NCBI GenBank assembly: GCA_013239625.1
Contig: MU053365.1
Location: 1,646,115 to 1,710,114, forward strand
From: Lama guanicoe
Taxonomy: Eukaryota
DNA: 64,000 nucleotides
Direction: 5' to 3'
Shown here: piece by piece, positions 15,226-60,370 of the stretch
Numbering within the stretch: position 1 is the stretch's first letter
Layout of the letters: each line of letters opens with the position of its first letter
The notes under the pieces: model-generated
The model's database searches: none
Told to the model about the DNA's origin: nothing
Seen by the model: the letters and a program-made list of their open reading frames with translations, nothing else
Translations under genes and position numbers: made by a program

Positions 15226-17082
15226 AGTCTAATGGGGAACTGAGTATTTGCCCCGTCTTCACATCAAAGAGGCAGAAAGAGGTGGAGGGAGGCAGTGCTA
15301 GTTGGCACTCTGCTCTCCTCTGCTCCTTAGAGCAATAGGGCCCAGTGAGGAGCTGAGTGTCCACCCTCACGAAACAGCAGTAAAGCAGGGGAGTTAAGAC
15401 CCATTTCCTTTCTGTCTAGTGAGAGCAGGGCCTGATAGGGAGCTGATTTTACATTCCCAGATTGAGGTAATTAGGCCATGCAGGTTGGTGCCCCAATTTT
15501 TTCTGGAATAATGTCAGTGGGGCTGAGGTGGGGGAGTGGTACTTCTGCCCCACCTGTCTTCAAGGAATCAGTGTCCCACTTTTGCTAGTGTGTTGTGAGC
15601 AAGGCCCAGTAGGAAGCTGAACATACACACTTTACATGCCCCTCAATGGAGAGACTGTTTGCTTAACAAAAAGAATAAATATGATAAGGCATCACAGTAT
15701 ATAATTAATATTCCAAATGTCCATTTTCTGTTTAACAGGAAATCACTTGACATACCAAGAACCAGTAAATAACAACATGAATGAGAGAAGGCAAGCAACA
15801 AATTGACCAGACACCAACACTGAGATAAATCAGGTATTGCCTGAGGGTTAGTGGCTGCTCTATATAATTTTATATAGTGCTATAATGCCACATCTGCTAT
15901 TATGTATCTGGTGTTACTACATCGTTTAAAGTTCTCTTTACTTTATACTATCCAATCCTCATTACTTGAATCTCCTAGTTTACTTACCAACTTGTTATAT
16001 TTTATATTTATTGTTCAAATTACTGTTGTTTTTTCCTTCTTATTGGATCTTGAGTATTAAAGAGGTGAGGAATTGTTGAGTTTCGGCCTTATCTGAGCTT
16101 TTAGGTTCAACTACCCCTGATGTGTCTGGCCGTGGCCATGCCTTCTTTGAAGTTATTATGAAAGAGGAGACAGAGGAAGAGGAAAAAAATGGCACTATGC
16201 CTAGTGGTTGATAAATAGGTATGTTTGTTTTATTGTAAGGTATTTGGTTTCCATTGTGGTGACTGAAGTAGCAGTCCAGGGAAAAACTTTAGGGTATGAG
16301 AGAAGTACATAGAAAGGGAAGGTTGTATGTGTAAATATTGTAGAAGAATATAGCTGTAGCCTCTTTCATTGACCTTAGTAAATTCAATAGAAAGATTTGA
16401 GATATTTTGAATAGTTTTGTTGGCTAAACCATGTTTCCTTGACCATGATCCACTTCTAAGACTAAGAACTGTGATGAAAATATCAAAACAGCCCGGTAGA
16501 CAGACTGGGGCTGGACACAAGAAAGTCTAAGAGGAAGAAACTGCCTTGTTCTCCTAACCGAAGTACATGGCTGTTTCTTCTGCTACTGCAGTTCTGTGTT
16601 CTTGACCAGAGGATGCCCAAGTCAGCCTCATATGCTAGTATAAAGAAATATTCAAGCTGGGAAGAAGGAGAGAGTTCTTTCCTGCTCTCTTCCAATTAGA
16701 GCTTTATCTGGCCAGCAACATGTAGATGTGATGGGTGGGTAGAGTGATCCTTTCCACTTAGCAACTCACTTTTGGGGAATGCAAACTACTTTTTCATGGC
16801 CAGCTATACTAAGTTGAAACTCAGCAGAATAATGCAGGCAAATATTCTAAGTCCCAGAGGTAGAGGTAAAGGGAGGAAAATTTATTCTCTCTCAGTCCTA
16901 GAATTTGTCATATTAGAGGCACTGTAGTTGAAGGGATATACACTCAGAGATGGGTGAAAGAGAGAGGGGAGTTGTTAATTGATTGTTTTCCATGCTTTTC
17001 AGTATATTATTCTGATCCATCATGGACTAAGAGTGTTGGGGTACTGATTGAAATGGCATGGTGATGGGTATTTGAGTATGGG

Positions 17083-17214
17083 TAGGTTGCCAGCTTCAGC
17101 CATTCTGTGTGTAGTACCCCATTCCAGGAAGTGTCATTCATGTGGCTAAAACAATGATTGGCATGTCCTGGAATGAGGTAATGCACAACAGGTACAACAT
17201 TGGTGGTGGTCCTA
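17083..17214 (+). ncRNA. miR-506-family hairpin, miR-507 paralogue (5p arm 17120-17140, 3p arm 17155-17176)
   Basis: CATTCCAGGAAGTGTCATTCA pairs with TGATTGGCATGTCCTGGAATG (first 10 bp perfect, 2 mismatches overall). Apical TGTG is present. The ~0.8-kb flank is paralogous to the 40.9-kb miR-507 copy. Confidence 0.8.
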
Positions 17215-19942
17215 GAGGAGGAGGAATGGCTACCCGGGTCTTCCCTTGAGCCAAGGCACCATGTTTTAAGTGCTAGGCCACATTATATGACCCTTGTATG
17301 TGACTTCTAAGGAGTAAGACATAGGGAGTTAGGGGCCTCTAGGAAAATTTTCATATGTATATTCTTCAGGGATTTAAAAGTTTGTTAAAAAGGGCTGTGC
17401 ATATGAGACCACAGCATTAGGTATAGTTATGATGCTCCTCTGTCTTCCCATTGATATTTCTCTCTGCAAAACCAAATTTCTTCTTTCTTGGATTTGCCTT
17501 CAATAATATTTGAAGCCACCAAAGTACTAGGGGTTAACTATAGTTAAGTTAGCTGAAGCTCTGTCAATCTGATATATAGTTCTCAAGCCTTATTTATTGA
17601 TTTATTATGTGTATACTTGTTCACTTATTTTTTAGTTATTATGTGAAAGATGGATGGGCAAGGAGGAACTACACTGTAGAACTCTTGATAATGATAAAAT
17701 ATTACCTTTTTTTCCCCATCTTATTCACCTTTGGATTTCTATTCTCAACCCCCTGCTCACTGAAGGAGAGAAAGAAGATAGCCAGTAGTTGGAGATCATC
17801 TGCAGAACTGGAGCAGTGCACGGCAAGCCAGTTATACATACATTTTACGTTCTTATGCGGGAAACAGAATCTTGATGATCTGCAAAGGTAAGCCCTCTTT
17901 AACCAAATCAGTGGTTATTGAAAACTAGAGTTTAGGTATTCCTACATCTCAAACAGCCACAGGCCTCACTCCCACTTCAAATCTTGGCAAAAAAAAATTA
18001 GGTTGTGATCCAAAGGGGATTTCTCTATTTGTCTCCTAGCATTATTACCCATGTACAATATGTGTCTACTACTTATGGTATCTTCTTTCCTCCTTCACAT
18101 GATCTAAGGGTTTCTTTACACAGAAAGTCTCATTATTCCAGATATGTACAGGCAGTGACTGTGACACCATTGAAAATTGTTCTCAGATTTATTTGTGTGT
18201 TTATTTTTGAGAAGGTGTGAGAGTTTATATATGAGTATATCTCTGTATAATTGTTCTGGAATTTGTAGGGATTCTTGTTTGACGCGGAGGTGGCCTTGGA
18301 TGGTTTTTGGGAGGAGGTATGTGGAGAAAGCTGATACAAATGATCCATTTCAAACATAGCTACAGTACAGCTTCTAAATAGAAGTAATACGTTCCATGGA
18401 ATATGAAAATGGTACTGCTGCTTTTGGGCTTTGTCATGGATCATAAGTACTTTAACCCGCAAATGACAAATATAATAGACATAGTCTGGTTCTTGTAGAC
18501 ACCATTTGAGAAAGGTCAAAGATGAAAGTTAGGTTCAGCAGTAGGGTTGGGATGTCAGAGTAGGTGCCCCTTGTCTCACAAAGAAAAGAGGACCAGTCAG
18601 CCCAGGGGCTTGGCAACCTGGGAATATATTATTTTCATCTTTCTTCTAGTCTTTAGCAGAACCAATATACTAAAGTTTACTATACAGTTGGGTTCAGTAC
18701 TAAACTACCCACTTCAAAGAACTCTCTGTATTCTTACTCTGCTGCCTAAAAACAAACACAAAGGGATGCAGGTGTTGTTTCTTTGTTCACCAGATGGAAG
18801 CATCCTCTGTGTTCCATTACACTTCCCTTATATAATGATAATCAGCTGCAGGGCATAGCTGAGGTAGAAATAAGTACGCGTCAAAAGACTGTCTGAGCTA
18901 AAAGATGCCATGGGGATTTTGTCCATAACAAACTTCTTATCACAGACCAGATACTTCGATCACGGATGGCTCAGATATATTTATTGAAGATGTGAAAGTT
19001 CTAACAGTTTTGTGAACTGGGAACTATTGAAAATCTATTAGAAAAAAAAGACTTGGGAAAATCCAATTTAAATGCCCCTTTCCTAAGACCTTTTTTTCTC
19101 TATATATAGAAAGTTCTTAGCTAAAAGTGTGTTTCCAAATCCTACTTCCTCTCTGTCTGTAGGGTTGGTATAACATGGCTCTAATAACATGGCTCTTAGA
19201 CTTTGACTGGTTTGTGGTCTCCTGTTACCTTTACATACTCTCATCTTCTATCAGGTTCAGTTGGTCATCGGAAATTCAGAGTGCCAGGCACCTGTGTCAC
19301 AGAATGGAAAATTGGGAAAATATATTATCAACAACCACATCTTTGATCAAGGGCCAAGATAATCTAGAGCTGAGAGTAGGAAAAGGATATCTCTAGGATT
19401 TAAGCTCATCTCTCTCTTGGAATTGAACAGTGATATATTAAATGGTTAGTTTCCTCTCAAGAGATGCAAGAAATGGGATTTCTGCTGTCTCATTATTTGC
19501 ACCTTTGGCTGATTTTCCCTTTCCTTCCTAAGGGTTTTAGTGTGTTTTCACTAATATTATATGGATTTAGAATGAAGGGATTTGGGGGTACCATGGAGTG
19601 TGGGGGTATTGTAAGTATTTAATTACTGTTGTTTTATTGGGATTTGACTAGGTTTACTTTAGGTGAAAGTAGATATTTTCAATACTTAGTTCCTAACAGC
19701 TTGAAAGAATAAAGATATTTCTTAAATGAGAAAGGAAGACCAGGAAGTGGCTTATTCTCTCTTGGGCATGAAAAACACCCAAGGATACATAGAGCAGTTG
19801 GGGGGAAACTTAGAGATGGAATTTAGAGGGCACTAGGGTGGGCAATGCCAAATTCTTACAAAAAAAAATGATGAATGTCATGCCATGGCTGTGGGGATTG
19901 GGCAGGTGTGAGTAGAGCTACGTTAATGTAGAGTGGATTCGG

Positions 19943-20071
19943 CAGAGAAGCCACCTTGAGCCATGCTGTATGCAGTGCCCTATTTAGGAAGACGCCATTC
20001 ACATCCACTATGTTATGAAGTGAGCCTTTCTGAGGAGGGTAATGCTCAAAAGTACAACTTTGTTGGTCACT
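19943..20071 (+). pseudogene. Degenerate miR-506-family hairpin
   Basis: gccaccttgagccatgctgtatgcagtgccctatttaggaag..tgaagtgagcctttctgaggagggtaatgc is clearly homologous, but the arms have about 5 mismatches and several G:U pairs, and the 3' flank is truncated. Confidence 0.65.
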
Positions 20072-21144: not shown

Positions 21145-21323
21145 TTGTTTTGTTTTGTTTTGTTTTTTATCATTTGGAATTTCTTTTTATATTTTAGTTT
21201 CCTTTTGAGGGGGTAGGTAATTAGATTGATTGATTGATTTTTTTAAGAGGAGGCAGTGGGGATTGAACCCAGGACCTCTTGCATGCTAAGCATGCACTCT
21301 ACCACTTGAGCTATACCCTCCCC
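21145..21323 (-). mobile_element. tRNA-derived SINE (camelid vic-1-like)
   Basis: The minus strand reads ggggagggtatagctcaagtggtagagtgcatgcttagcatgcaagaggtcctgggttcaatcccc, with Pol III A and B boxes, followed by an A-rich tail. Confidence 0.8.
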
Positions 21324-23934
21324 ACCAAGGCTATTTTATGTGATGGTTTTGCCTGTACTGATTATCCTCGAACGTGAGAAATCCAGATCAGTGACTGAGA
21401 CATCAATTTCTTGGCTTAAAAGAGGTGCAGCTGCCTATTAAACTGGTAGTGCATGTGCACAGGTATGTCTGGGAGTATTAAACTAACTTGCTACACTACT
21501 GACCTAAAACTAGTACATGGCTATGATGGCTAATGCTTGTGCTTCTGCGTTCCTGCTAGATTAAGTTGAGAATGATCTAGCACAAGAAACATGGTGGTAA
21601 AAGAGAAGGTTGAATTGGACAATATATTGCAGTCAAACTCTCTGATAATGGAGCTCATCACATCTGCAGTGTCAATAGGAGAGTGAACCCCCTCTATTAT
21701 AATTTACTTTATTTCCCATGGGAAATAGGGGGGGAAAGTGATATTTCCTCATCTTGGGATAATCTGCACAGAGTAAAAAGAGGCATAAGGTGATCAGTGG
21801 ATCTTAAGACATTCAGTTAGAAGGAGGAGTATTGAGGCTAATAATGTTGAGAAGAGTTAAAGTCTTTTTGGAAATACTGGTACCAATTTTTGATATGCAG
21901 TTTGATGAGATGTACATCCTGGTATACCTGTCACTGTAACTTCCTTTGTTTCTCAAATAACGGTTTATGTATTTCTTTGAAAATATGTTGACTTTAAATT
22001 CTTTATCTGCTAGTATGCTATTTGGAAACTGTCACATGAAGTTTCTTTTGTCTGCTTTTCTCCTGTGTATGGGATGCATTTTTCTTTCCTTTGGCATGTC
22101 TCATGATTTCAGTGAAAGCTGGACATCTTATATGACTAATTGTAGCAACCCTGGATGATGATTTCCCCTCCGTGGGATTATTTTGTTGTTGTTGTTTTCT
22201 GCCAGTTTGTTTATTGTCTTGGCAATTCTATATCAGTGAAGTTTTGTCTGTGGCATGAAACTGTTTTGTGCTTTTCCTATTGGGGCACAGGCTTTGTTAT
22301 GCACACAGTCATTCTGAGAAGACAGTGGTTTTGGTGGAGTTCTCTTCGACTCCTTTTCTTAATGATCTCTCTGTCAGTCTATCTGCCTCCATGTGTACCG
22401 CACCCAGCCCTTAGACTTCCTAACTGCAAGCAGATTATTACGTAGTTTTCAAAATGCTATAGGCAAAAAGTGCTCCAGAGTTTGATCTAAATAATTCCGT
22501 CTCTTTTGCACAGGTAGTTTTGAGGCAAGTCTTTGAGGTTTGTTTAGATAGCACGAGGGCTCTTAGTAGTTCTCTCTCCGCCTGGTTCTCTCTGGCGAGC
22601 AAGCTGGACTGTTTCTCAGCTTATTCCTCGCAGAGTGCTACAACCTCGTTTTATTGACTGATCATCAAAATCTGTCTTGTTTGTGGTGGGTTTAACATAG
22701 CCTACACTCTGTTACAAATAAAGTCTTATTTTTTAGAGAGAGCATTCATATTCTCTGTTATTCAGGGTAGCCTCTCACACTGGGCAAAAATAGTAGAATC
22801 ACTAATCTGGAGCTGTCACTAAAGGCAGGACTGCTTCTCTCAGGGTGACATTTGTGCTATGCAAGCCGGGCGCTTGTCAGTGTCAGTAGATCTTGTTCTT
22901 CTCCACTTGCCTCACCTGATGTGGAGCCAAAGCACAACAATCAGTCTACTGCAAAGTATATTAGAGATCCAGTACTCTTAGACACTGTGCCTGCAGTAGA
23001 ACCTCCAGTCTATGATAGTAAGCGGAGTGGTGGGACAGCGCCCCGAAGTTCTCACCACGTGTGTTTAGAGAAATGCTGGAGGATTGCAACTTCCATGAGT
23101 ACACTGTAGCTCTTGATAGGGAGCTAGAGATAGAGACAATCTAATTTTTACGCCATAGTCACCTTAAAGACTAAAACCCCAGCCTCTGGTCTCCATTTAC
23201 CATATCTGTGTACCTATATTGTGGTGTCTTGGACTCTGATTTTCCAGGGAAATGCAGGCACCATATAGTATATCTCAGAATGAAAATAATGCAATTACAT
23301 GTTTTAAACAATGTCGTTTCAGATAATGACCCAGAAATCCCAAGAGCTAAAGGAACGTAAGGGTGTCCTCCGGTGTCAGGTACATTTTACATCTTGCAGA
23401 TCACTCCTGTTAAGTGCATGGGCTTTGTACACTCTGGGGTCTGAGGAAGAAAAACGATTTCTACTTTTCTCCATCCTACCACCTACTGTTTATTGTCTTT
23501 TTCTTTACATCTAAGATTGTGTGTACTTTCCCTGATTATTCTGTTTCTCTGGAGTTGAGGTAGGTAACTCAGGTACAGGGACTCATACCATGTAAGTCAA
23601 GCATGGATTGGTGGCATGAAGTAAATTTACTGCTTAATTAATGGGTCTGGGGAATACAAACTGCTTGTTAATGCTTTATATACAACAGTGGGAAAAGGAA
23701 TAGGATAAGGCATGCAAGGATATTTCTTCCATAAGCAGCAGAACCTAACAATAAGAATTAATATTTATCAGTTCTGAAAAACTGCCATATGGAATGTCTA
23801 CTATGTAAGTGGCCAGCACCCAGGAGGGGGTATGAGGAAGGACAGTGGAGCTGGTACAGGTCCTATGTACAAATTCCACTGATCACTGAAAATACTAAGG
23901 GACTGCTTCGAAGGCACATTAGTTGTTGTTTAGG

Positions 23935-24067
23935 CAGGGCTGCCATCCGTGGACATGCTGTGTGTGGTACTCGACTGCAGGGAGTGACAATCATATATAA
24001 TTAAAAATGACTGACATCTCTGCTAGGGGAGAAATACCTGACACGTGTGGCTTATGTGATGACACTG
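23935..24067 (+). ncRNA. MIR509: miR-509-like hairpin (5p 23973-23993, 3p 24008-24029)
   Basis: catgctgtgtgtggtactcgactgcagggagtgacaatcatatataattaaaaatgactgacatctctgc closely follows recalled hsa-mir-509, including the TATAATTAAAAATGA loop region. The arms pair, but the lower stem is weaker. Confidence 0.7.
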
Positions 24068-24471
24068 TAGGTGCACCGGGGCTGTTTGGTTACTTGCAGG
24101 GGGATAATTTCCCTTGAGTCCAAGCATGCCGCTCTTACACGCCTTCCATGCCTGTAGTGGATTATTTCAGAGAACTCTTTTCAGGTGCCTTATCAGAGGC
24201 AAGGCCTAAGAACATAAGATTCCCTAAAAGCATCCCACTGAGTTCTTCTGATATTCAATCCAGTTTTCTAAATTTGCTTGCCTGAAATAAGAAGGCTTTT
24301 TGTGCTATTGTGCTGTCCCATTCTGCAGAGCCTATTCTCTACCCTAAGGAACAAATCTGTTCAATTGTTCTATCTATTAGCTTCCCTCCCCATTTTTAAG
24401 CCTTCTCCTTAACCCTCTGAGGCTCAAAATATTACCTATCTCAGGTATGGTGATAATTTTCTGTCTGTATT

Positions 24472-24523: not shown

Positions 24524-25301
24524 GTCTAAAACATGCTTGGTTTTAAAAAAGAATGTTTCAATCCTATGTAAGTCACCAACTTATTAGGGTTTGTGAATCA
24601 TACTGAGAAACTTGTACTCTGTGATATTATTTTTTGTTGTCAGTCTTTAAAAAATTCATGTATCTTTAATCTTTCTGTCACTTTTCTTTTGGTGTCCCTT
24701 CCTAGTGCAGTGAGGAGAGAGAAAAAGCGAAGGCAGAAAAGGGAGAGAGAAGGAGATAATTCTTGGTAAGTGGTCTTTTTTTCACTCCTGGATCTGAGGA
24801 GGAAAAGGGATTTCTACTCTCTCCGTCATACCTACCATGATTATTCTCCCATTCTCCGCTTCTAAGATCCTGTGTATTTTCCCTGCTTATTCTGTGGTTC
24901 AATAGTTGAGATATGTATTCAGGTGGAAAGATTCAGATCTTTGGGTGATAAGCATGGGTTGGTGATACACAGTGTATTTTTTGATAAATGATTGAATTTG
25001 GATAATACAAACTACTTGTTAATGCTTTATATATAACATTGAGAAAACAAACCAGCTAAGGCATCCAAAGTTATTTCTTCCATGAGTAAGAGAAGAACCT
25101 AACTGGAGGGCTTAATGGTTCTTAGTTCTAAAAAGTGTCTTGAGAAAACTCTGAACTATGAGTAGTTAACACTTAGAGAAGGATGGATGGGGAAAGACAG
25201 TTGAGCGAGTGCTATAGTGGTCCTTAGTACAAATGCCAGTGGCCACTCACAGCCTAAAAATACTGAGGGGTTTGCAAAAGGAGCATGAAAGGGTGATTAG
25301 G

Positions 25302-25434
25302 CTGTGTTACCATCATTAGATGTTCTTCTTGTGGTACTCTACTCCAGAGAGCCTCAATCACGTATAATTAGATGTGATTGATACCTCTGTGGGTAGAGTA
25401 ATGCATGACATGTACAACGCAGATGGTGGCACTG
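25302..25434 (+). ncRNA. miR-514/miR-510-like hairpin (5p 25340-25360, 3p 25375-25396)
   Basis: gtggtactctactccagagagcctcaatcacgtataattagatgtgattgatacctctgtgggtagagtaatgcatgac resembles recalled hsa-mir-514/510. The tactctac/gtagagta lower stem and TCAATCAC/GTGATTGA upper stem are perfect. Confidence 0.8.
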
Positions 25435-27466
25435 TGGGTGTATTGGGAGTGTTTAGTTGCAAACAGCAAACGTTTCCCTTAGCACTCTCTCGTCTGTGGG
25501 ACTAGCTCAGAGGCAAGTCCTAGGAACTGAAGGTCCTGGAGAAAGCTTCCCATTGAGTTTCGTCTTGAGTTCCTATCCCTTTTACCAAAGCAGTGTGACT
25601 GAAATGAGAACAAAACCTTTCAGCACTTTCATGGTGTTCCTCACTACTTGTAGGTTTTAGTTTTTTGGTACCTATATCCTACCCCAAACCCCCCAAATGG
25701 TAAAATGTTCTTACCCATTTCTCCCCTTCCCATTTTCAAGACTTTTCTTTAGACAATGGAAAATTACGTTCTGCTTCTCAGGTCCCTAGCCTGTTGAGGC
25801 TTACTTTTTTTTTCTCTTGGGTATTGAAGCACCTTATTTTTTCACAGGACTAGAAGATACCCATTCTTATAAAAATATGTTTAAATCTGGTCTAAGTCAT
25901 CACTTCATCAAGGATTGTACATAGCACCCAATTTTATTCTTTGGTATTATTTTATTTGGTTTATTTTAAAAATTAAGTATCTTTTGCTTTTCTGGAGAGG
26001 GGAGGCTTGGAGATGATAAGCATCATATGCCTGAGTGCCATTGTGTGAACTGGAGAAACATTTTAGGAATAAGAAACTAATTTCACGTTCTTATGTTGTA
26101 CAGAGGGAGGTGATCTAATGCCTCCCTCTAAGTTTGGTCAGGGAGTTGAATTAGAAACAACTCTTTGCAACATTTTGTGACAAATATAAGGAATAAATTG
26201 TATGGATACCCTACCTTAATCCTTTGGGAAATTGTAGTTAAGAAGAATAGAGATACATCTAGATCTGAAGCTGATATATGTTCCCATTTTTACTTAGTTA
26301 CATTTTTATGTGGGTTCAAACTAGAATAACATTCTTCTTGTTGTCTGACATTCAGGCCGTGGCAGTTTGGATCTCAACAAATAGAAAGCCCTCACTTTTC
26401 CCTGGCTTGCTAGAGAGGGAGGCCTACCTTTGACCCTGCCTCTTTCCTTTTACAGTGGATAATGGTAGCTATAAATCGGTACAAATTACTGAAGCCACCA
26501 TAATCTCATTGTTTATATATAAATAGTGGATAAATCTGTAGCTTTTTTGTTAAATCCTCTTCCTGGTGAATTAGATGACTAAGCCAGACCAACATATGAA
26601 TGTAAAGAAAGATTGAGGACATGGGTGGTGGAGACTGAGGTCAAATTTTCTGCTTAACAGTTCTCGAAGACCTTCAGAGTCTATAGATACTGGGAAAATT
26701 TCTTGTCTACTCTGTTTCATCTGATAATATTCCTATTATGAATAAAGAAGAAAGGGCTATGACCACACATAGCAGCCAACTTCAGGGCAAATGATGATTG
26801 GATGAATATAAATATTTTGAGTTTTCTATGTTTATGGATAATGTGGGACTTCCTACAGTTCTGTAAGCTGCAGACTTAACTCATTTTAGGCTAATGAAGC
26901 CAAGATAAGACCCTGAATTCAGGAGGGCTTGGGGAAATTCAGTTTAAGTGTTCCTGACTTCTTAACTTGCTTTCTATCCTCATTGTGAGTAACATGGACA
27001 GGTATGTGTTTTCACAAATTTTCCAATTCCCTAATCCATAAGCTTTTCCATAACCTGGTTTTCATGCTTTTAAAACAAGATTTTTTTTTTTGGTCTTGGA
27101 ATCTATTTGCCTCCTTCCTTCCATGTTATCTTAGAGTGTATGTCCAGGCCAGAAAAATATATACACTTGGAGGCCTGTGGCTCAGAATGGAAAGTTTAGA
27201 AAAAGATCCTCTCTGATAGAAGGCTGATAATTTCAGGGATGAGAGGAAGAACAGGGCATTTCTACACAGTAAGCCCATTTTCTTTCTTGGAAATCAATCC
27301 AGGTAAATTTTATATTTTGTTTCTTCTCTGGGGAAGGGGAAAGAAAAGAAATTTCTGCTTTCTACTTGTTGTCAACTACCAATTCCTCCCTCCTTGTCTC
27401 ACTTGGCATTTATGCACGATTTCTCTGCTTCTTTTGTGGTTCATTAAGGTTTGAAACTCCAAACAA

Positions 27467-28874: not shown

Positions 28875-29011
28875 CTGGGCAGTCACCGCATTTAACCATA
28901 CTTTGTGAAGTGCCCCACTCCAAAGAGTGCCATTCAAGTATACTAAAATATGATTGGCACTTTTTTGAGTGTCGTAATTCACAACATGTACAACCACATG
29001 TGGTGGCCCTG
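28875..29011 (+). ncRNA. miR-506-family hairpin, unassigned (5p 28916-28936, 3p 28951-28972)
   Basis: CACTCCAAAGAGTGCCATTCA pairs with TGATTGGCACTTTTTTGAGTG (2 mismatches, 1 G:U). The lower stem is ttgtgaa/ttcacaa, and the element ends with tggtggccctg. Confidence 0.8.
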
Positions 29012-32831: not shown

Positions 32832-34069
32832 GAGGTGAGTATATGTGTATAGCTGCATATGCATAGCTGCCCTCCCTTGAGTCCAAGAAGCATCTCCCTT
32901 TGCTAGGCTACTTCAATTGACTCTCATAAGCAGGTTTAAGTAAGGCTTAGGGACTGAGGGCTCCTTGGAAAAGTCACCCATGGAGTTTTTCCAAGGATTT
33001 GTATATCCTTGTCCAAAGGAGATGTGCCTACATGGGTGTAAAATTTGTAGTGAGGACGTGGCTTTCCCTCTGTGCGTTCAGAGCTTCTACTGTTTGCAGA
33101 ACCCAAGTACTTTTTACGCCCCTCCAAACCTCTAATCTGTTCTTTCCTAGCTGCATTCTTTATAGTTCCCAAGCTTTTCCCTTTTACTTTGGGGCTTTTC
33201 AAATTCCTTCCTGCTTTCCTTCCATATCCCAAAGCTCTTTACTCTCAAGATTGAAGATAAGTTGTTCCTCAGGGATTTGGATGCACTTCATTACTTGGAA
33301 AACTTTCTTCTAAAGCATATGTACGTCAATATGTTCATATATTTAAGTATTTATTTTAAATTCATGTTTTTGTATAGCTATATCAATTCTTTTGGAATTC
33401 ACCATAACCATAGGGGTTAAGAAGATGCCTAGAACATTTAATTTGGTAGTTCCTTTTACTCTATTTAACATTTTGATTTTTGAATTCTGTGAAAGGATGA
33501 AGAGAAGGAAAGGTACTCATCTCAGACCTCCTGAGAATGAGAATGACACTTTGTCTTTTCCCTTTCATATTCCTTGAGGTGTTCCTTCTTAGCCAGAGTC
33601 TTTGCAAAGAAAGAAAAATCAAGAATCAGAGAAGATAGATGACATCAGACCCCCGGAGACCTTCTTCAGGACTGGAGCAGTGACTGAGAAGCAGGTTGAA
33701 TACACTATTGTTCTGGGAAATGGGAGTGGGGAACTGTCATCCTGATGCCCCCTCCCAGATGAGCTCATATAACCCACATCACATTAGTGCATTGAACGGA
33801 CAAGTAGAAATTTCTAGAATTTTGCCGTCATTTCAAATCAGTTACATGTATTACCCCACTACAAATCTTGGGGGAAATTTATAGTGTGACCAAGAGGAAA
33901 GGAATTCCTCCATTTTATGTCCCAGTATTACTACATTACTACCTATGTACAATCAATGCCTACTGCTTAAAAGGTGTGTTACCCTCTCATGAGCTCTATA
34001 GATTTCCCTGAGCAGAAACTCTTACATCCCCAGATTTGTCCCAGTCAGTGACAGTGATGCTATTGTAGA

Positions 34070-35180
34070 TTGTTCTTAGATTGGATTGTGTGCTTATTTT
34101 TGAGAAGGTGTGAGAGTTTATGAGTGTGTGTTGGTGTTCATGAATTCATTATTTTGTTCATGTACATATTATATTGTTTGAATTTGGTTAGAGCTTTCAG
34201 ATTGTTTTTGCTTAGTAATATTTTTTATTTAGACTTTGGTACCCGATTTTTTATTTATTTTTGTGATTATTCTGTTTCTTATGCTTTCATTTGCAGTCTG
34301 TGTGCAAAGTTAGTGTTTTTTGTTTCTGTTTCAGTATGCATGGCATTTTGGGTTGGTATTATTTGTATGCTTGAAGGAATTTTTTTTTTTGCTAGAATTT
34401 TGACTTGCTTAGTGAATGTTTTAATTTTGGTTTTGTTGGGTGTGTTATTTTTTAATTATTTGTTTTGGGTTCAAGTCTGGGTTTCTTTGGTTTTGATTTG
34501 TTTATGTGTTTTGATTTATTATGAGATGTGCTTTGGAGTTTTAGTTGCGGTTTTGTGTATGTGTGTGTTTATTGTGTGCATTTTCTTTGTGTTTTGAGAT
34601 TTTTAAATTTGTATGATTTTTTAAATGGATCTTGCTATTTTTCCCTTTAATATTTGTGGGTGAGTTCTTTAAGTTTTGTTTTGTGGGTGTTTACCTGTGT
34701 GTGTTGTATTTCAGTTTGGTTTGTGCAAGTTCATTTGGGTTTTGTATGTTTTGCCTCAGTGTCTATATATGCTTGAATGGTTTGGTATTTGCAGTATGTT
34801 TTTTCATTGATATATTCATGTATTGTTTTTGTTTGAACCTTGTTGTAGTTGTTTTATTTATTTTTTTAAATCCTATTTATTGAGCTTGACTTATATAGAG
34901 GATTGTTGGTAGGGATTTTTTCAAAAATCTTATTGATTTTGGTTTATTACTGATTTATTTGTGCCATGTTTTTCTGACTGATTTTTTTATTGTTTATAAA
35001 GGTTTTGGTACATTGGGGTATGAGTTGTTTGGAGGGACGGACTATTTGTGTAGTTGTTTGTTGATTATTTTTTAGCTTATTTTAAGTATTTCTTTTTTGA
35101 ATTGTGTGTATGAGTGTGTATTTTTAATTTGGGGCTTTTTATATTAAGGGATGACTTTATTTTGGGAGATGACTTAATTT
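34070..35180 (+). repeat. Long G/T-rich, C-depleted low-complexity tract
   Basis: Seen directly; no exact tandem unit. Confidence 0.85.
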
Positions 35181-38097: not shown

Positions 38098-38230
38098 CAG
38101 GGCTGCCACATTCAGCCACATTGTGTGCAGTGCCCTACTCAAAATGGTATGATTCACACAAACTAAACAATGAAGTTTGCTTTTGAAGTAGAGTAATGTA
38201 CAACATGTACATCTACATGTAGTAGTCCTG
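38098..38230 (+). pseudogene. Degenerate miR-506-family hairpin
   Basis: cagggctgccacattcagcc..gtgcagtgccctactcaaaatgg..tgaagtttgcttttgaagtagagtaatgtacaacatg; the upper half of the stem pairs poorly. Confidence 0.7.
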
Positions 38231-40400: not shown

Positions 40401-40933
40401 CATGTGTAATGTTGCTGCTGTTTCTGCTGCTGCAGCCCTCCATGTATGATCAGAGGATGCCAAGCTGAAGCCCACGTGGTGATACAAGGAAGACTCATGG
40501 TGTGAAGAAGAAGATAATTCTCTCAAGCAGTTCCATCCAAGCTCTATCTGGTCTGCAATATCTAAATGCGATGAGTGAGTTGTGTGATTCTTTCTACTAA
40601 ACAACTGACTTTGGGGAGGTACAACGTCATTTTGCATGTGGCAGCTAGGTCAAAATGAAAATAAGCTGAATAATGGAGGCACATATTCTGTGTCCATGAG
40701 GAAGAGGGAAAAGGAAAGGAGGAAGGCTTATTCTCTCTCAGTCCTAAAATCTGTCTCATTAAATGCACAGCAGGGGAGGGGATAAGCAGTCAGGGAAAGG
40801 AAGAAGAGAGAGGAGAGTATGTTGGTTATTTTCTAGATCTTTTGGGTATATTCTGCTGATTACTCATTGGCTGAGTGTTGGGGTATTGATTAAACTGCCA
40901 TAGTGAGGGAAGGTGCTTTTTTTGTGGTTTAGG

Positions 40934-41066
40934 TAGGGTCACCACCTTTAGCTATGCTGTGTGCAGTGCTCCACTTCAGGAAGTGCCATCCATGTGGCTA
41001 GAGATATGATTGGCATCTCCTAGAGTGAAGTAATGCACAACACGTACGATGTCAGTGCTGGCCTTG
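40934..41066 (+). ncRNA. MIR507: miR-507 orthologue (5p 40972-40992, 3p 41007-41028)
   Basis: tgctgtgtgcagtgctccacttcaggaagtgccatccatgtggctagagatatg..gagtgaagtaatgcacaaca follows recalled hsa-mir-507 and lies ~310 bp upstream of the miR-506 copy, a close pairing as in human. Confidence 0.85.
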
Positions 41067-41245
41067 GGAGAGGGGATATGGTCATGTGCTCATAGGTATC
41101 ATTTTTTGAATCTTGGAACCACCCACCTAGTGCTGGTTCAACTCATGGGACCCTTTAAGAGCCTTCTATAACCTAGAGAAGGAGGGTCCCGGAAAAATGC
41201 TCACCTACAGGTTCTCCAGGGTTTTATATTGCTGTTAAAAAAGGT

Positions 41246-41375
41246 CAGGGCTGCCACCTTCAGCTACTGTGTTCAGTGCCCTACTCAGGAAGGTGTTGTT
41301 TACATAGATTGATATGTGAATGGCACCTTATGAGTAGAGCAATGTATAATGTGGACAACATTTGTGGTGGCATTA
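41246..41375 (+). ncRNA. MIR506: miR-506 orthologue (5p 41282-41302, 3p 41317-41338)
   Basis: tactcaggaaggtgtt..atagattgatatgtgaatggcaccttatgagtagag..tggacaacatttgtggtggc; the 3' tail matches recalled hsa-mir-506 and the arms pair. Confidence 0.85.
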
Positions 41376-44080: not shown

Positions 44081-45871
44081 CATGGTGTAATGGGTCTTAG
44101 AATCTCCTACTATGTGCTAGGTTGCTACAAAGACTTCTCTGAAGCTACTACTGATGGGTGGGTGAAATAGAGGAGAAGAAATTGTACTCATGCTAATGAT
44201 TGAAGGAAAGTTTAGAGTTGTTATTCTTTCCGCTTAAGAAGTTTAAGGAGGCATGTCAAGAGCTCAAATACTTCAAGGAAGATAGAATTGGACAAAAGAG
44301 AAATTGATCTATGTAAATGTTTCTGTGTAATCTGACTTTGGTTACTTTTCATGAATTTTAATAAATTTAAAGAAAGGATCAAGATACTTAGAATCATTTT
44401 ATTCTCTGAAATATGTTTCATTGACCATGACCAAGCCCTGGGACTGAGCTGTATACTGCCCTGTCTTTTGGGAGTTATAGATATTTAGTAGACTGATGGG
44501 AATGATGCACAGGAACACCTGAGACAACGAATCTCCATTATTTTCCCATACCAATTTAAAATAAGTACATGGCTACTGTGAAAGATGCTTCTAATCATTC
44601 AGTCTTATTAAACTAAATGCAGAATAATCCAGCCCAGTACCATGTGTTGGAAAGGAAGGAATTCTATCCAGTTCCCCATCAACACAGTTTCATTATATCT
44701 ATAGTATCCAAATTAGATGGGGCATCTCTCTACTGTATTCTATTATTTCTATTAGAATTGCTTTGGAAAATTAGAAAGAAAGTAATATATCTTGAGTTGG
44801 GGCTAGGAAGAAACAAAACAGAGTCTAGGTGGCCTGTTTCAGTTGGAAATTTCCCTTGAGAGCATGAATTTATGGTCATAGGCTATCATAAGTCTTTCTG
44901 TATTACACACAAATATTAGGGAATGTGTGATGTTTCTTACATTTAAAGAAGATAACTAGTTTTATGGACATTTGAAAAAACAAGGGAACAGATGCAGACA
45001 GGAAGACAAGGAGGCATCCAGATTACATTTTCCTCACTCTTATATTACCGTATATTTCAAAAGTAAGAAATGTAGCTGATATATATTTACACAAATGCTC
45101 TTATATCTCTTTTCACAAGAACTTCCAGAACCCATTTTTCATATTTTTAAATCAACCCTGTGTTTGTTCTGGTATTATCCCTTATATTTCCCTCTAACTT
45201 GTTCCAGGCTCAGTTTGTCAAGGAAATGCAGGCACCTAGTAGCATATCACAGAATGTAAAAATGTGGAAATGTGCTAATAACAACCATGCATCCAAAGAA
45301 AAGTTCAGAAAACTCAGGAGCTAAGAGGATGAGGCACCAAGAATATTCTCTGTCTTGTTGACAACTCCTGATAAGTAACTCTTTTATTCATTCCAGAGTC
45401 TAAGAAGGGAAAGAGTCCTCTACTCTCTCCATCCCACCAGCTACTGATTATTCTTCCATTCTTTGCTTCTAAGATCCTGCGTTTTACCTGCTTATTTTGT
45501 GTCTCAGGAGGTGAGGTAAGCAACTTAGGTAGAGGGACTCAGATCTTTAGGTGACAAGGGAAGAGTTAGTGTGATGGAATATATTTTCTGCCTAAATATT
45601 GAATCTGGGAAATGCAAATTACTTGTTAATAAACATATATAACAGTGGGAAAAGAATCAAGATAAGACTTGTGAAGATATTTCTTCTATGAGCAGGAGCA
45701 CTTAAGAGGAGGTATTAATGGTTCTCAGTTCCTATAACTGTCATGTGAAAACCTCAACATGTGAGAGGATAGCACTCAGGGATGGATGGAAGAGAAAAGT
45801 CAGCAGTGTGGGTGCTATAGAGTTCCTTTGGACAAATGCTGGTGGCCACTCACAGCCTGAAAACATGAGGA

Positions 45872-60237: not shown

Positions 60238-60370
60238 TTGGGCTGCCACACTGAGCCATTCAGTGTGCAGTGCCTTTCACAAGAAGGTGTCATTCATGTG
60301 GACTAAAATATGAATGGTGCCTTTTTGAGAAGAGTAATGTACAACATGCAGGGCATGCGTGGTGGCCCTG
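60238..60370 (+). ncRNA. MIR513: miR-513 orthologue (5p 60276-60297, 3p 60311-60332)
   Basis: gccacactgagccattcagtgtgcagtgcctttcacaagaaggtgtcattcatgtggactaaaatat follows recalled hsa-mir-513. The 5p arm TTCACAAGAAGGTGTCATTCAT differs from recalled miR-513b-5p at 2 positions. The stem has one true mismatch. Confidence 0.9.

What the first reader, a model, noticed from the sequence alone, without database searches (positions are those of the whole stretch)
16560..17400. Ancient ~0.85-kb duplicate of the miR-507 unit with the stem conserved by compensation
Seen: 16560-17400 aligns with 40410-41245 (e.g. accagaggatgcccaag / atcagaggatgccaag, ttattctctctcagtccta in both, gagtgttggggta(c/t)tgatt). 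The flanks are heavily diverged, yet both 3p arms begin TGATTGGCAT, and the base of the stem switches from CAC..GTG to CAT..ATG. The 17-kb copy pairs better than the syntenic miR-507 and has no adjacent 506-like partner. Inference: a second functional miR-507-type gene with the same seed.
Basis: partly seen in the sequence, partly recalled or inferred. Interest (0 to 1): 0.7.

Follow-up and report, generated by a model that had tools for sequence, protein, structure and literature searches.

The report
Old upstream miR-507 paralog, testis cluster
This is a real, very old second copy of the microRNA gene miR-507 in the X-linked, testis-expressed miR-506 cluster; its product was already sequenced in alpaca and its counterparts are listed in pig, cat, rabbit and horse, so it is an ordinary member of a known family.

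Summary
The duplicate is real: 16570-17195 aligns with 40414-41047 at 71% (E 7e-79). The hairpin at 17107-17188 folds better than miR-507 at 40959 (-46.5 vs -42.5 kcal/mol). It is not new. A 21-nt small RNA sequenced from alpaca skin (Alpaca-novel-31, PMC3508611) matches 17157-17177 exactly and ends at the predicted Drosha cut. Probable orthologs are listed as ssc-mir-507-7, fca-mir-507-7 and ocu-mir-507-11 (PMC6445303; each the most upstream cluster member) and eca-mir-514b (PMC10312769), so the duplication probably predates the rabbit-camelid split. (2) The one reported product starts two bases later than proposed (seed UUGGCAU), while miR-507a orthologs are listed with GAUUGGC, so 'same seed' is unproven. 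(3) The CAC..GTG to CAT..ATG switch passed through a U-G wobble still present in pig, horse and rabbit. (4) The 3' flank is family-wide, not miR-507-specific. The scan earlier identified the neighbouring 28.9-kb hairpin as mir-507b; it had no note on this sequence elsewhere.

The parts
16570..17106 (+). 5' flank duplicated together with the hairpin; homologous to 40414-40958
   Evidence: 73% identity, K2P distance 0.34 on 16571-17068
17085..17213 (+). Family repeat unit that carries the hairpin (MER91C-type by the literature; no repeat library was available to test this)
   Evidence: aligns with the units at 60241-60369 and 28896-29010; alignment of 10 copies; the probable horse ortholog is listed as MER91C
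17107..17188 (+). miR-507-type hairpin (Rfam RF04282, 78.1 bits, gathering score 79, E 7e-16)
17106..17107 (+). basal UG motif, 14 nt before the predicted 5' Drosha cut
   Evidence: motif definition recalled
17120..17177 (+). predicted 58-nt pre-miRNA; 5p arm from 17120 (seed AUUCCAG), 2-nt 3' overhang at 17176-17177
   Evidence: register taken from the dog and cat miR-507a precursors; duplex
17141..17144 (+). apical UGUG motif
17157..17177 (+). mature 3p RNA, identical to Alpaca-novel-31 and -73 (21 nt, seed UUGGCAU)
   Evidence: one copy in the window, next best site has 4 mismatches
17195..17198 (+). CNNC motif 18 nt after the 3' cut; absent from the 41-kb copy
17194..17461 (+). 3' flank shared by several family members, best match to the flanks of miR-506 and miR-508
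40414..41040 (+). sister unit: syntenic miR-507 (507a), hairpin 40959-41040
   Evidence: 76 of 80 identical by eye to eca-mir-507a
41269..41349 (+). miR-506, 310 bp after miR-507a; 41317-41338 equals Alpaca-novel-32
19966..20052 (+). weakly folding family hairpin 2.8 kb downstream; resembles dog cfa-mir-506-10 and horse eca-mir-8908n by eye
   Evidence: (z -1.1)
28903..28984 (+). third miR-507-type hairpin (507b)
   Evidence: dog and cat 507b rows compared by eye

Best explanation
An old segmental duplicate of the miR-507 unit (about 540 bp of 5' flank plus hairpin) at the upstream end of the Fmr1-proximal miR-506~514 cluster on the X chromosome of a camelid. It is transcribed on the + strand with the cluster (inferred), cropped by Drosha/DGCR8 at 17120 and 17177 (motifs shown, cut inferred, 3' end matched by a published read) and diced to a 21-nt 3p RNA with seed UUGGCAU (reported in alpaca skin). 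Selection has kept the stem paired, through wobble steps and repair of mismatches, while letters drifted. Like its family it most likely acts in male germ cells as one of several redundant tuners of shared mRNA targets (inferred from the family; not tested). The same gene is listed as ssc-mir-507-7, fca-mir-507-7, ocu-mir-507-11 and probably eca-mir-514b, and appears to be decaying in cat and rabbit.
For: Homology and fold. Sister to the 41-kb hairpin, 97/94, and 65 of 80 identical against 44-56 of 80 for five other hairpins. Of 11 differences in stem columns none breaks a pair of the 41-kb stem; chance 1.2e-4 at the flank's transition share and 0.015 if all changes were transitions (100,000 draws each); 4 of 3000 randomly mutated hairpins fold as well. 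The weak family copies at 20 kb and 38 kb show what drift does (z -1.1 and -0.8). UG, UGUG and CNNC are all present, in this copy alone among the 7 hairpins tabulated. Exact 21-nt alpaca small RNA, listed twice. Pig, cat and rabbit each list a 507-type precursor as the most upstream member beyond the 509/510/514-like genes, as here; pig lists both arms. By eye, pig, cat and horse rows share the 17-kb states at hairpin positions 9, 11, 15 and 17 (position 1 = 17108), rabbit at 9, 11 and 15.
Against: No camelid testis small-RNA data were seen; the alpaca evidence is one 2012 skin study with no counts shown and no 5p partner found. The 21-mer's uniqueness was checked only within the window. Ortholog comparisons were made by eye on 70-80 nt, without flanks; overall the horse row is as close to the 41-kb copy (68 of 80) as to the 17-kb copy (67 of 80) and its position was not seen. 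Only two of the four shared states (9, 15) are derived; 11 and 17 are the family consensus. The cat copy is absent from the feline miRNA table and no dog or cow row was found, so the gene is dispensable in some lineages. The simulation starts from a present-day copy, not the ancestor, and cannot say when selection acted. Rfam score is 0.9 bit under the gathering score.
Confidence: 0.85

Rival explanations
1. A dosage duplicate with the same seed as miR-507a: both hairpins are diced at the same register, or give the same mixture of UGA- and AUU-start isoforms, and repress the same targets.
For: The first 10 nt of the 3p arms are identical, so seeds are equal in either register if both copies use the same one. 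The pig ortholog ssc-mir-507-7 is listed with the UGA start, like ssc-mir-507-3.
Against: The alpaca read starts at 17157; 507a orthologs are listed with the UGA start in dog, cat, pig and rabbit and with the 5p arm in cow; 5p seeds differ; the pairing next to the Dicer site differs (U-A here, C-A mismatch at 41 kb).
Confidence: 0.35
2. A processed but functionally idle transposon-derived hairpin: the stem persists because the element began as a palindrome and arm-to-arm repair restores pairing; the small RNA is a by-product.
For: The family derives from the palindromic MER91C element, which yields small RNAs when overexpressed (PMC10312769 passages). Arm identity is not significantly above 5' flank identity (p 0.10). 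Orthologs look decayed in cat and rabbit. No excess conservation could be shown against a relative about 3.5% diverged (1.6 changes expected in 44 nt, P(0) 0.21).
Against: The U-G intermediate in pig, horse and rabbit shows stepwise change, not one-step copying between arms. The four unpaired positions typical of the family are kept rather than repaired. Motifs outside the stem (UG, CNNC) are kept. Neighbouring copies of the same element did decay.
Confidence: 0.1
3. A younger, camelid- or artiodactyl-specific duplicate of miR-507a, with the pig, cat, horse and rabbit upstream copies arising independently.
For: Both camelid copies share T at position 57 and C at 61, where both pig and both cat copies have C and T (by eye). 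Lineage-specific duplication is frequent in the family (PMC6445303 passages).
Against: K2P distance 0.34 in the flank is about ten times the distance to the relative laid. Same position and shared states in four other orders or suborders. Position 57 flips often (T also in rabbit 507-4, shrew 507-3 and horse 514b).
Confidence: 0.04

Closest known systems
Alpaca-novel-31 / -73 (PMC3508611, Table 3 and Additional file 3)
   Same: 21 of 21 nt identical to 17157-17177
   Different: In the passages and supplements seen, the paper treats it as a novel miRNA without homologs and gives no locus or family; reads were mapped to alpaca and bovine genomes combined, so nothing follows for cattle.
ssc-mir-507-7 (pig chrX:137237106-137237176, PMC6445303 Data S4)
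   Same: Most upstream cluster member; 59 of 70 identical by eye; carries the 17-kb state at 8 of 14 positions that separate the two camelid copies; both arms listed
   Different: Keeps the U-G wobble at pair 15-66 and the C-A mismatch at 11-70; 3p listed with the UGA start (seed GAUUGGC).
eca-mir-514b (horse, PMC10312769 Table S2)
   Same: 67 of 80 identical by eye; shares states at 9, 11, 15, 17, 46, 70, including the C-G pair at 11-70; same 7 letters UUGGCAU in the AUU register
   Different: Named as a miR-514; upper stem differs; genomic position and mature ends not seen.
miR-507a / MirGeneDB Mir-506-P2 (cfa-mir-507a = P2d, Bta-P2f, hsa-mir-507), here 40959-41040
   Same: Sister hairpin, shared 5' flank, same first 10 nt of the 3p arm
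   Different: Lies 310 bp before miR-506; lacks the CNNC here; 5p seed differs; listed 3p start differs.
fca-mir-507-7 and ocu-mir-507-11 (PMC6445303 Data S4)
   Same: Same upstream position and early derived states
   Different: Poorer predicted stems, no mature arms listed (no cat row lists any); the cat locus is absent from the feline miRNA table searched.

Membership tests
Rfam RF04282 mir-507 | score at or above the gathering score of 79 bits | tested here: not met
   78.1 bits, E 7.1e-16, full model length; best family for this hairpin. A narrow miss, so it is not filed as an Rfam gathering-level member.
MIR-506 family (FmiR / spermiR-R) | sequence homology to the family's precursors | tested here: met
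MIR-506 family (FmiR / spermiR-R) | lies in the cluster, same strand and order as 509-507b-508-507a-506-513 | tested here: met
   against coordinates
MIR-506 family (FmiR / spermiR-R) | located on X between Slitrk2 and Fmr1 | not testable with these tools
   no genome is held; inferred from the cluster
MIR-506 family (FmiR / spermiR-R) | derived from MER91C | not testable with these tools
   no repeat library; the probable horse ortholog is annotated MER91C
MIR-506 family (FmiR / spermiR-R) | testis-predominant expression | not testable with these tools
   no camelid testis small-RNA data found; the only read is from skin
bona fide miRNA gene | stable unbranched hairpin of about 58 nt with lower stem | tested here: met
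bona fide miRNA gene | Microprocessor motifs (basal UG, apical UGUG, CNNC) | tested here: met
   definitions recalled
bona fide miRNA gene | 20-26 nt reads from both arms with 2-nt offsets | tested here: inconclusive
   3p only in alpaca, its 3' end at the predicted overhang; both arms listed for pig
bona fide miRNA gene | homogeneous 5' ends | not testable with these tools
   no raw small-RNA reads were offered
ortholog of human miR-507 (Mir-506-P2 next to miR-506) | lies about 300 bp upstream of miR-506 | tested here: not met
   that position is held by 40959-41040; nothing 506-like 310 bp after the 17-kb copy. It is a paralog.

The most novel reading that the evidence does not exclude
The upstream copy is a distinct, unrecognised placental-wide paralog hidden under several names. 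Armadillo dno-mir-507 (MirGeneDB Dno-Mir-506-P2) would be this gene and not the ortholog of human miR-507: it lies upstream of the 509-like genes and miR-508, is not beside miR-506, and has the same seed UUGGCAU as the alpaca read. The gene would then date from the placental root, survive in camelids, pig, horse and armadillo, decay in cat and rabbit, and differ from miR-507a by a 2-nt Dicer shift that gives a different seed from identical letters, with the stem repaired independently in horse and camelids.
Probability: 0.4. Interest if true: 0.3.

Novelty: already known. Interest (0 to 1): 0.15.

Why it matters
Modestly. It ties an orphan alpaca small RNA to a locus and family, and lines up entries named differently in pig, cat, rabbit, horse and perhaps armadillo as one old paralog, which would tidy the orthology of a fast-evolving X-linked fertility cluster. 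It also offers a clean natural example of a base pair moving from C-G through U-G to U-A, and a testable case of two paralogs with identical letters but possibly different seeds. It does not reveal a new kind of gene or mechanism.

Tried and rejected
No genome is held, so copy number and X location were not tested. Two metagenome scans for mammalian orthologs found 0 matches each. Sequencing runs: 24 listed, no small-RNA library among them by description. I laid 4 of the 24 (3 RNA, 1 DNA). The RNA contigs come from a relative about 3.5% diverged and all break in or around the hairpin, resuming at 17184, 17228 and 17192, 7-51 nt after the predicted 3' cut, while the DNA contig spans it. This fits cropping but is only a weak hint: contigs only, one break has a loose end, one run has other gaps, DNA may be in the libraries, and no silent control stretch was laid. 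The same data cannot show conservation (P(0)=0.21; 6 difference rows were not shown). I first inferred that cattle carry the same 21-mer, and dropped this when the methods showed a combined alpaca and bovine reference. A first statistic 'no pair broken' on the full folded structure did not hold strictly (2 loop-side pairs differ) and was redone on the 34-position register; the reverse-direction count of total pairs was not significant at high transition shares (0.04-0.29). Gene conversion between the two camelid copies (shared T57 and C61) was considered: the longest identical flank run is 19 nt, the same as in the 24/25-kb pair, so there is no support; about 15-20% by judgement. The 20-kb hairpin as a displaced miR-506 partner was rejected: it has its own 5' flank and none of the 507-506 spacer. 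Paper searches for eca-mir-514b/8908n, alpaca testis miR-507 and gene conversion in the cluster returned 0 papers; three further hits were seen as listings only and look unrelated. Cat terms were camelid spellings and could not have matched; one search repeated the search by cat letters and coordinate.
Full report
Setting. Rfam finds six miR-506-clan hairpins at gathering level on the + strand (23960, 25327, 28903, 32724, 40959, 60263) and four more below it (17107, 19966, 38123, 41269). Their order matches the Fmr1-proximal half of the X-linked miR-506 cluster in pig, cat and dog (coordinates). Two published alpaca small RNAs match the window exactly, so the animal is most likely a camelid (inference). 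No genome is held.

The observation. 16570-17195 aligns with 40414-41047 at 71.2% (E 6.65e-79), and homology ends upstream at about 16570. Identity is 67 of 82 in the hairpin, 385 of 526 in the 5' flank and 127 of 198 in the 3' flank. The hairpin's excess over the 5' flank is not significant (p 0.10); over the 3' flank it is (p 0.004). The 3' flank is not specific to miR-507: it scores 84, 83 and 74 against the flanks of miR-506, miR-508 and miR-513 and 58 against the short miR-507 spacer. The specific duplicate is thus about 0.62 kb. Its 5' flank distance is K2P 0.34, like the 24/25-kb pair (0.34). A tree of the window's 10 hairpins joins the 17-kb and 41-kb copies at 97/94.

The hairpin. It folds at -46.5 kcal/mol (z -8.0) against -42.5 (z -5.0) for the 41-kb copy. 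With position 1 = 17108, the copies differ at 15 of 80 positions, 11 in stem columns. Two pairs differ on both sides (15-66: U-A vs C-G; 11-70: C-G vs U-A), four on one side with pairing kept, two are paired here and mismatched at 41 kb, and one difference lies in a mismatch. None breaks a pair of the 41-kb stem. Random placement of 11 changes does that with probability 1.2e-4 at the flank's transition share, 0.006 at 90% transitions and 0.015 at 100%; two or more two-sided changes arise with probability 0.02-0.12. So preserved pairing, not compensation or arm identity, is the signal. The simulation starts from a present-day copy and cannot date the selection. The basal UG (17106), apical UGUG (17141) and CNNC (17195) are all present; the 41-kb copy lacks the CNNC (motif definitions recalled).

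Expression. A full-text search with arm words hit one paper: Table 3 of PMC3508611 lists Alpaca-novel-31, identical to 17157-17177, and Additional file 3 lists it twice. It occurs once in the window; the 41-kb arm differs at 4 of 21. Its 3' end falls on the 2-nt overhang predicted from the dog and cat miR-507a precursors. The 5p arm and the 41-kb arms were not found in those supplements (4 of 5 files readable), which says little because known miRNAs were filtered from that list. Reads were mapped to alpaca and bovine genomes combined. RNA-seq contigs of a relative break around the hairpin, a weak hint only.

Orthologs. Data S4 of PMC6445303 lists a 507-type precursor as the most upstream member in pig (ssc-mir-507-7, both arms listed), cat (fca-mir-507-7) and rabbit (ocu-mir-507-11), beyond the 509/510/514-like genes, as here. 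Table S2 of PMC10312769 gives horse eca-mir-514b. All comparisons that follow are by eye. At the positions separating the two camelid copies, pig 507-7 has the 17-kb state at 8 of 14, cat 507-7 at 6 of 14 and horse 514b at 6 of 15, always including 9, 11, 15 and 17; pig 507-3, 313 bp from miR-506, has the 41-kb state at 11 of 14, and horse 507a matches the 41-kb copy at 76 of 80. Only 9 and 15 are derived against the family consensus, so position carries much of the argument, and the horse position was not seen. No dog or cow row was found among those shown, and the cat locus is missing from the feline miRNA table while 507a, 507b, 508 and 514 are present. The duplication thus probably predates the split of rabbits from laurasiatherians, with decay in some lineages.

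How the stem changed. Pair 15-66 is C-G in the family consensus and in miR-507a, U-G in pig, horse and rabbit upstream copies, and U-A in the camelid: true compensation through a wobble, completed after the split from pig. Pair 11-70 is a C-A mismatch in the consensus and in pig, cat and rabbit; miR-507a repaired it to U-A, horse and camelid upstream copies to C-G. It looks two-sided only when the two camelid copies are compared (inference).

Seed. The first 10 nt of both 3p arms are the same, so seeds agree if the Dicer register agrees. miR-507a orthologs are listed with the UGA start (GAUUGGC) in dog, cat, pig and rabbit and with the 5p arm in cow; 507b orthologs with the AUU start. The alpaca read uses the AUU start, but pig 507-7 is listed with UGA. 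The question is open; different dominant seeds in camelids seem somewhat more likely than the same.

Mechanism. Shown: homology, fold, motifs, an exactly matching published small RNA. Inferred: co-transcription with the cluster, Drosha and Dicer cuts, Argonaute loading, testis expression and function. The family is reported as MER91C-derived, testis-enriched and redundant, with subfertility and weaker sperm competition only after multi-cluster knockouts of the Slitrk2-proximal genes in mice (PMC10312769 passages; PMC6445303 passages). A redundant tuner of germ-cell mRNAs is the best reading.

What was seen of each paper. PMC3508611: passages including Table 3, and a search of its supplements (file 4 unreadable). 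PMC10312769: passages, part 1 of 2 of file 2, part 1 of file 3, supplement searches. PMC6445303: passages, parts 29 and 30 of 193 of its supplement, one search. PMC5569061: supplement searches only. I found no paper that links these entries as one gene, but miRBase and current MirGeneDB could not be consulted.

Verdict. Observation confirmed with two qualifications; interpretation partly supported; already known; interest 0.15. The boldest reading left is a placental-wide paralog that includes armadillo dno-mir-507 (position and seed only; sequence not seen), probability 0.4, interest 0.3.

Noticed in passing
window 19966-20052: Weakly folding family hairpin (z -1.1) that resembles dog cfa-mir-506-10, horse eca-mir-8908n and the 3p arm of guinea pig Cpo-Mir-506-P1 by eye; the guinea pig gene also lies at the upstream end of its cluster, so it may be this gene's ortholog and not that of miR-506.
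   Followed up: partly
window 38123-38203: Decayed family hairpin (54.9 bits, z -0.8) between miR-508 and miR-507a, aligning with the miR-506 unit at 70%.
   Followed up: no
window 45360-45870: Copy of the 5' flank of the miR-509 units (74% to 24755-25268) with no hairpin after it: a truncated duplicate.
   Followed up: partly
window 23424-24091 and 24777-25458: Tandem duplicate of the miR-509 unit with the same flank distance as the 17/41-kb pair (K2P 0.34); the first hairpin folds less well (z -3.4).
   Followed up: partly
window 41317-41338: 3p arm of miR-506 equals Alpaca-novel-32 of PMC3508611, also reported there as novel.
   Followed up: yes
window 21248-21320 (-): tRNA-like Rfam hit (36.5 bits) with an A-rich tail, probably a tRNA-derived SINE; resemblance to the camelid SINE is recalled, not tested; single copy in the window.
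   Followed up: partly
window 18040-18228 and 33934-34121: Further pair of similar stretches (73%, E 2e-22), each about 1 kb after a hairpin (17-kb copy and miR-508); may be an interspersed repeat or part of a larger old duplication.
   Followed up: no
window 17150-17155: An RNA contig of a relative ends here with a 12-nt loose end that suggests a small change in the hairpin loop of that species.
   Followed up: no
armadillo JH564535:655807-655864: Dno-Mir-506-P2 lies upstream of the P7 genes and of miR-508 and on a different scaffold from miR-506, the position of the 17-kb copy rather than of miR-507a.
   Followed up: partly
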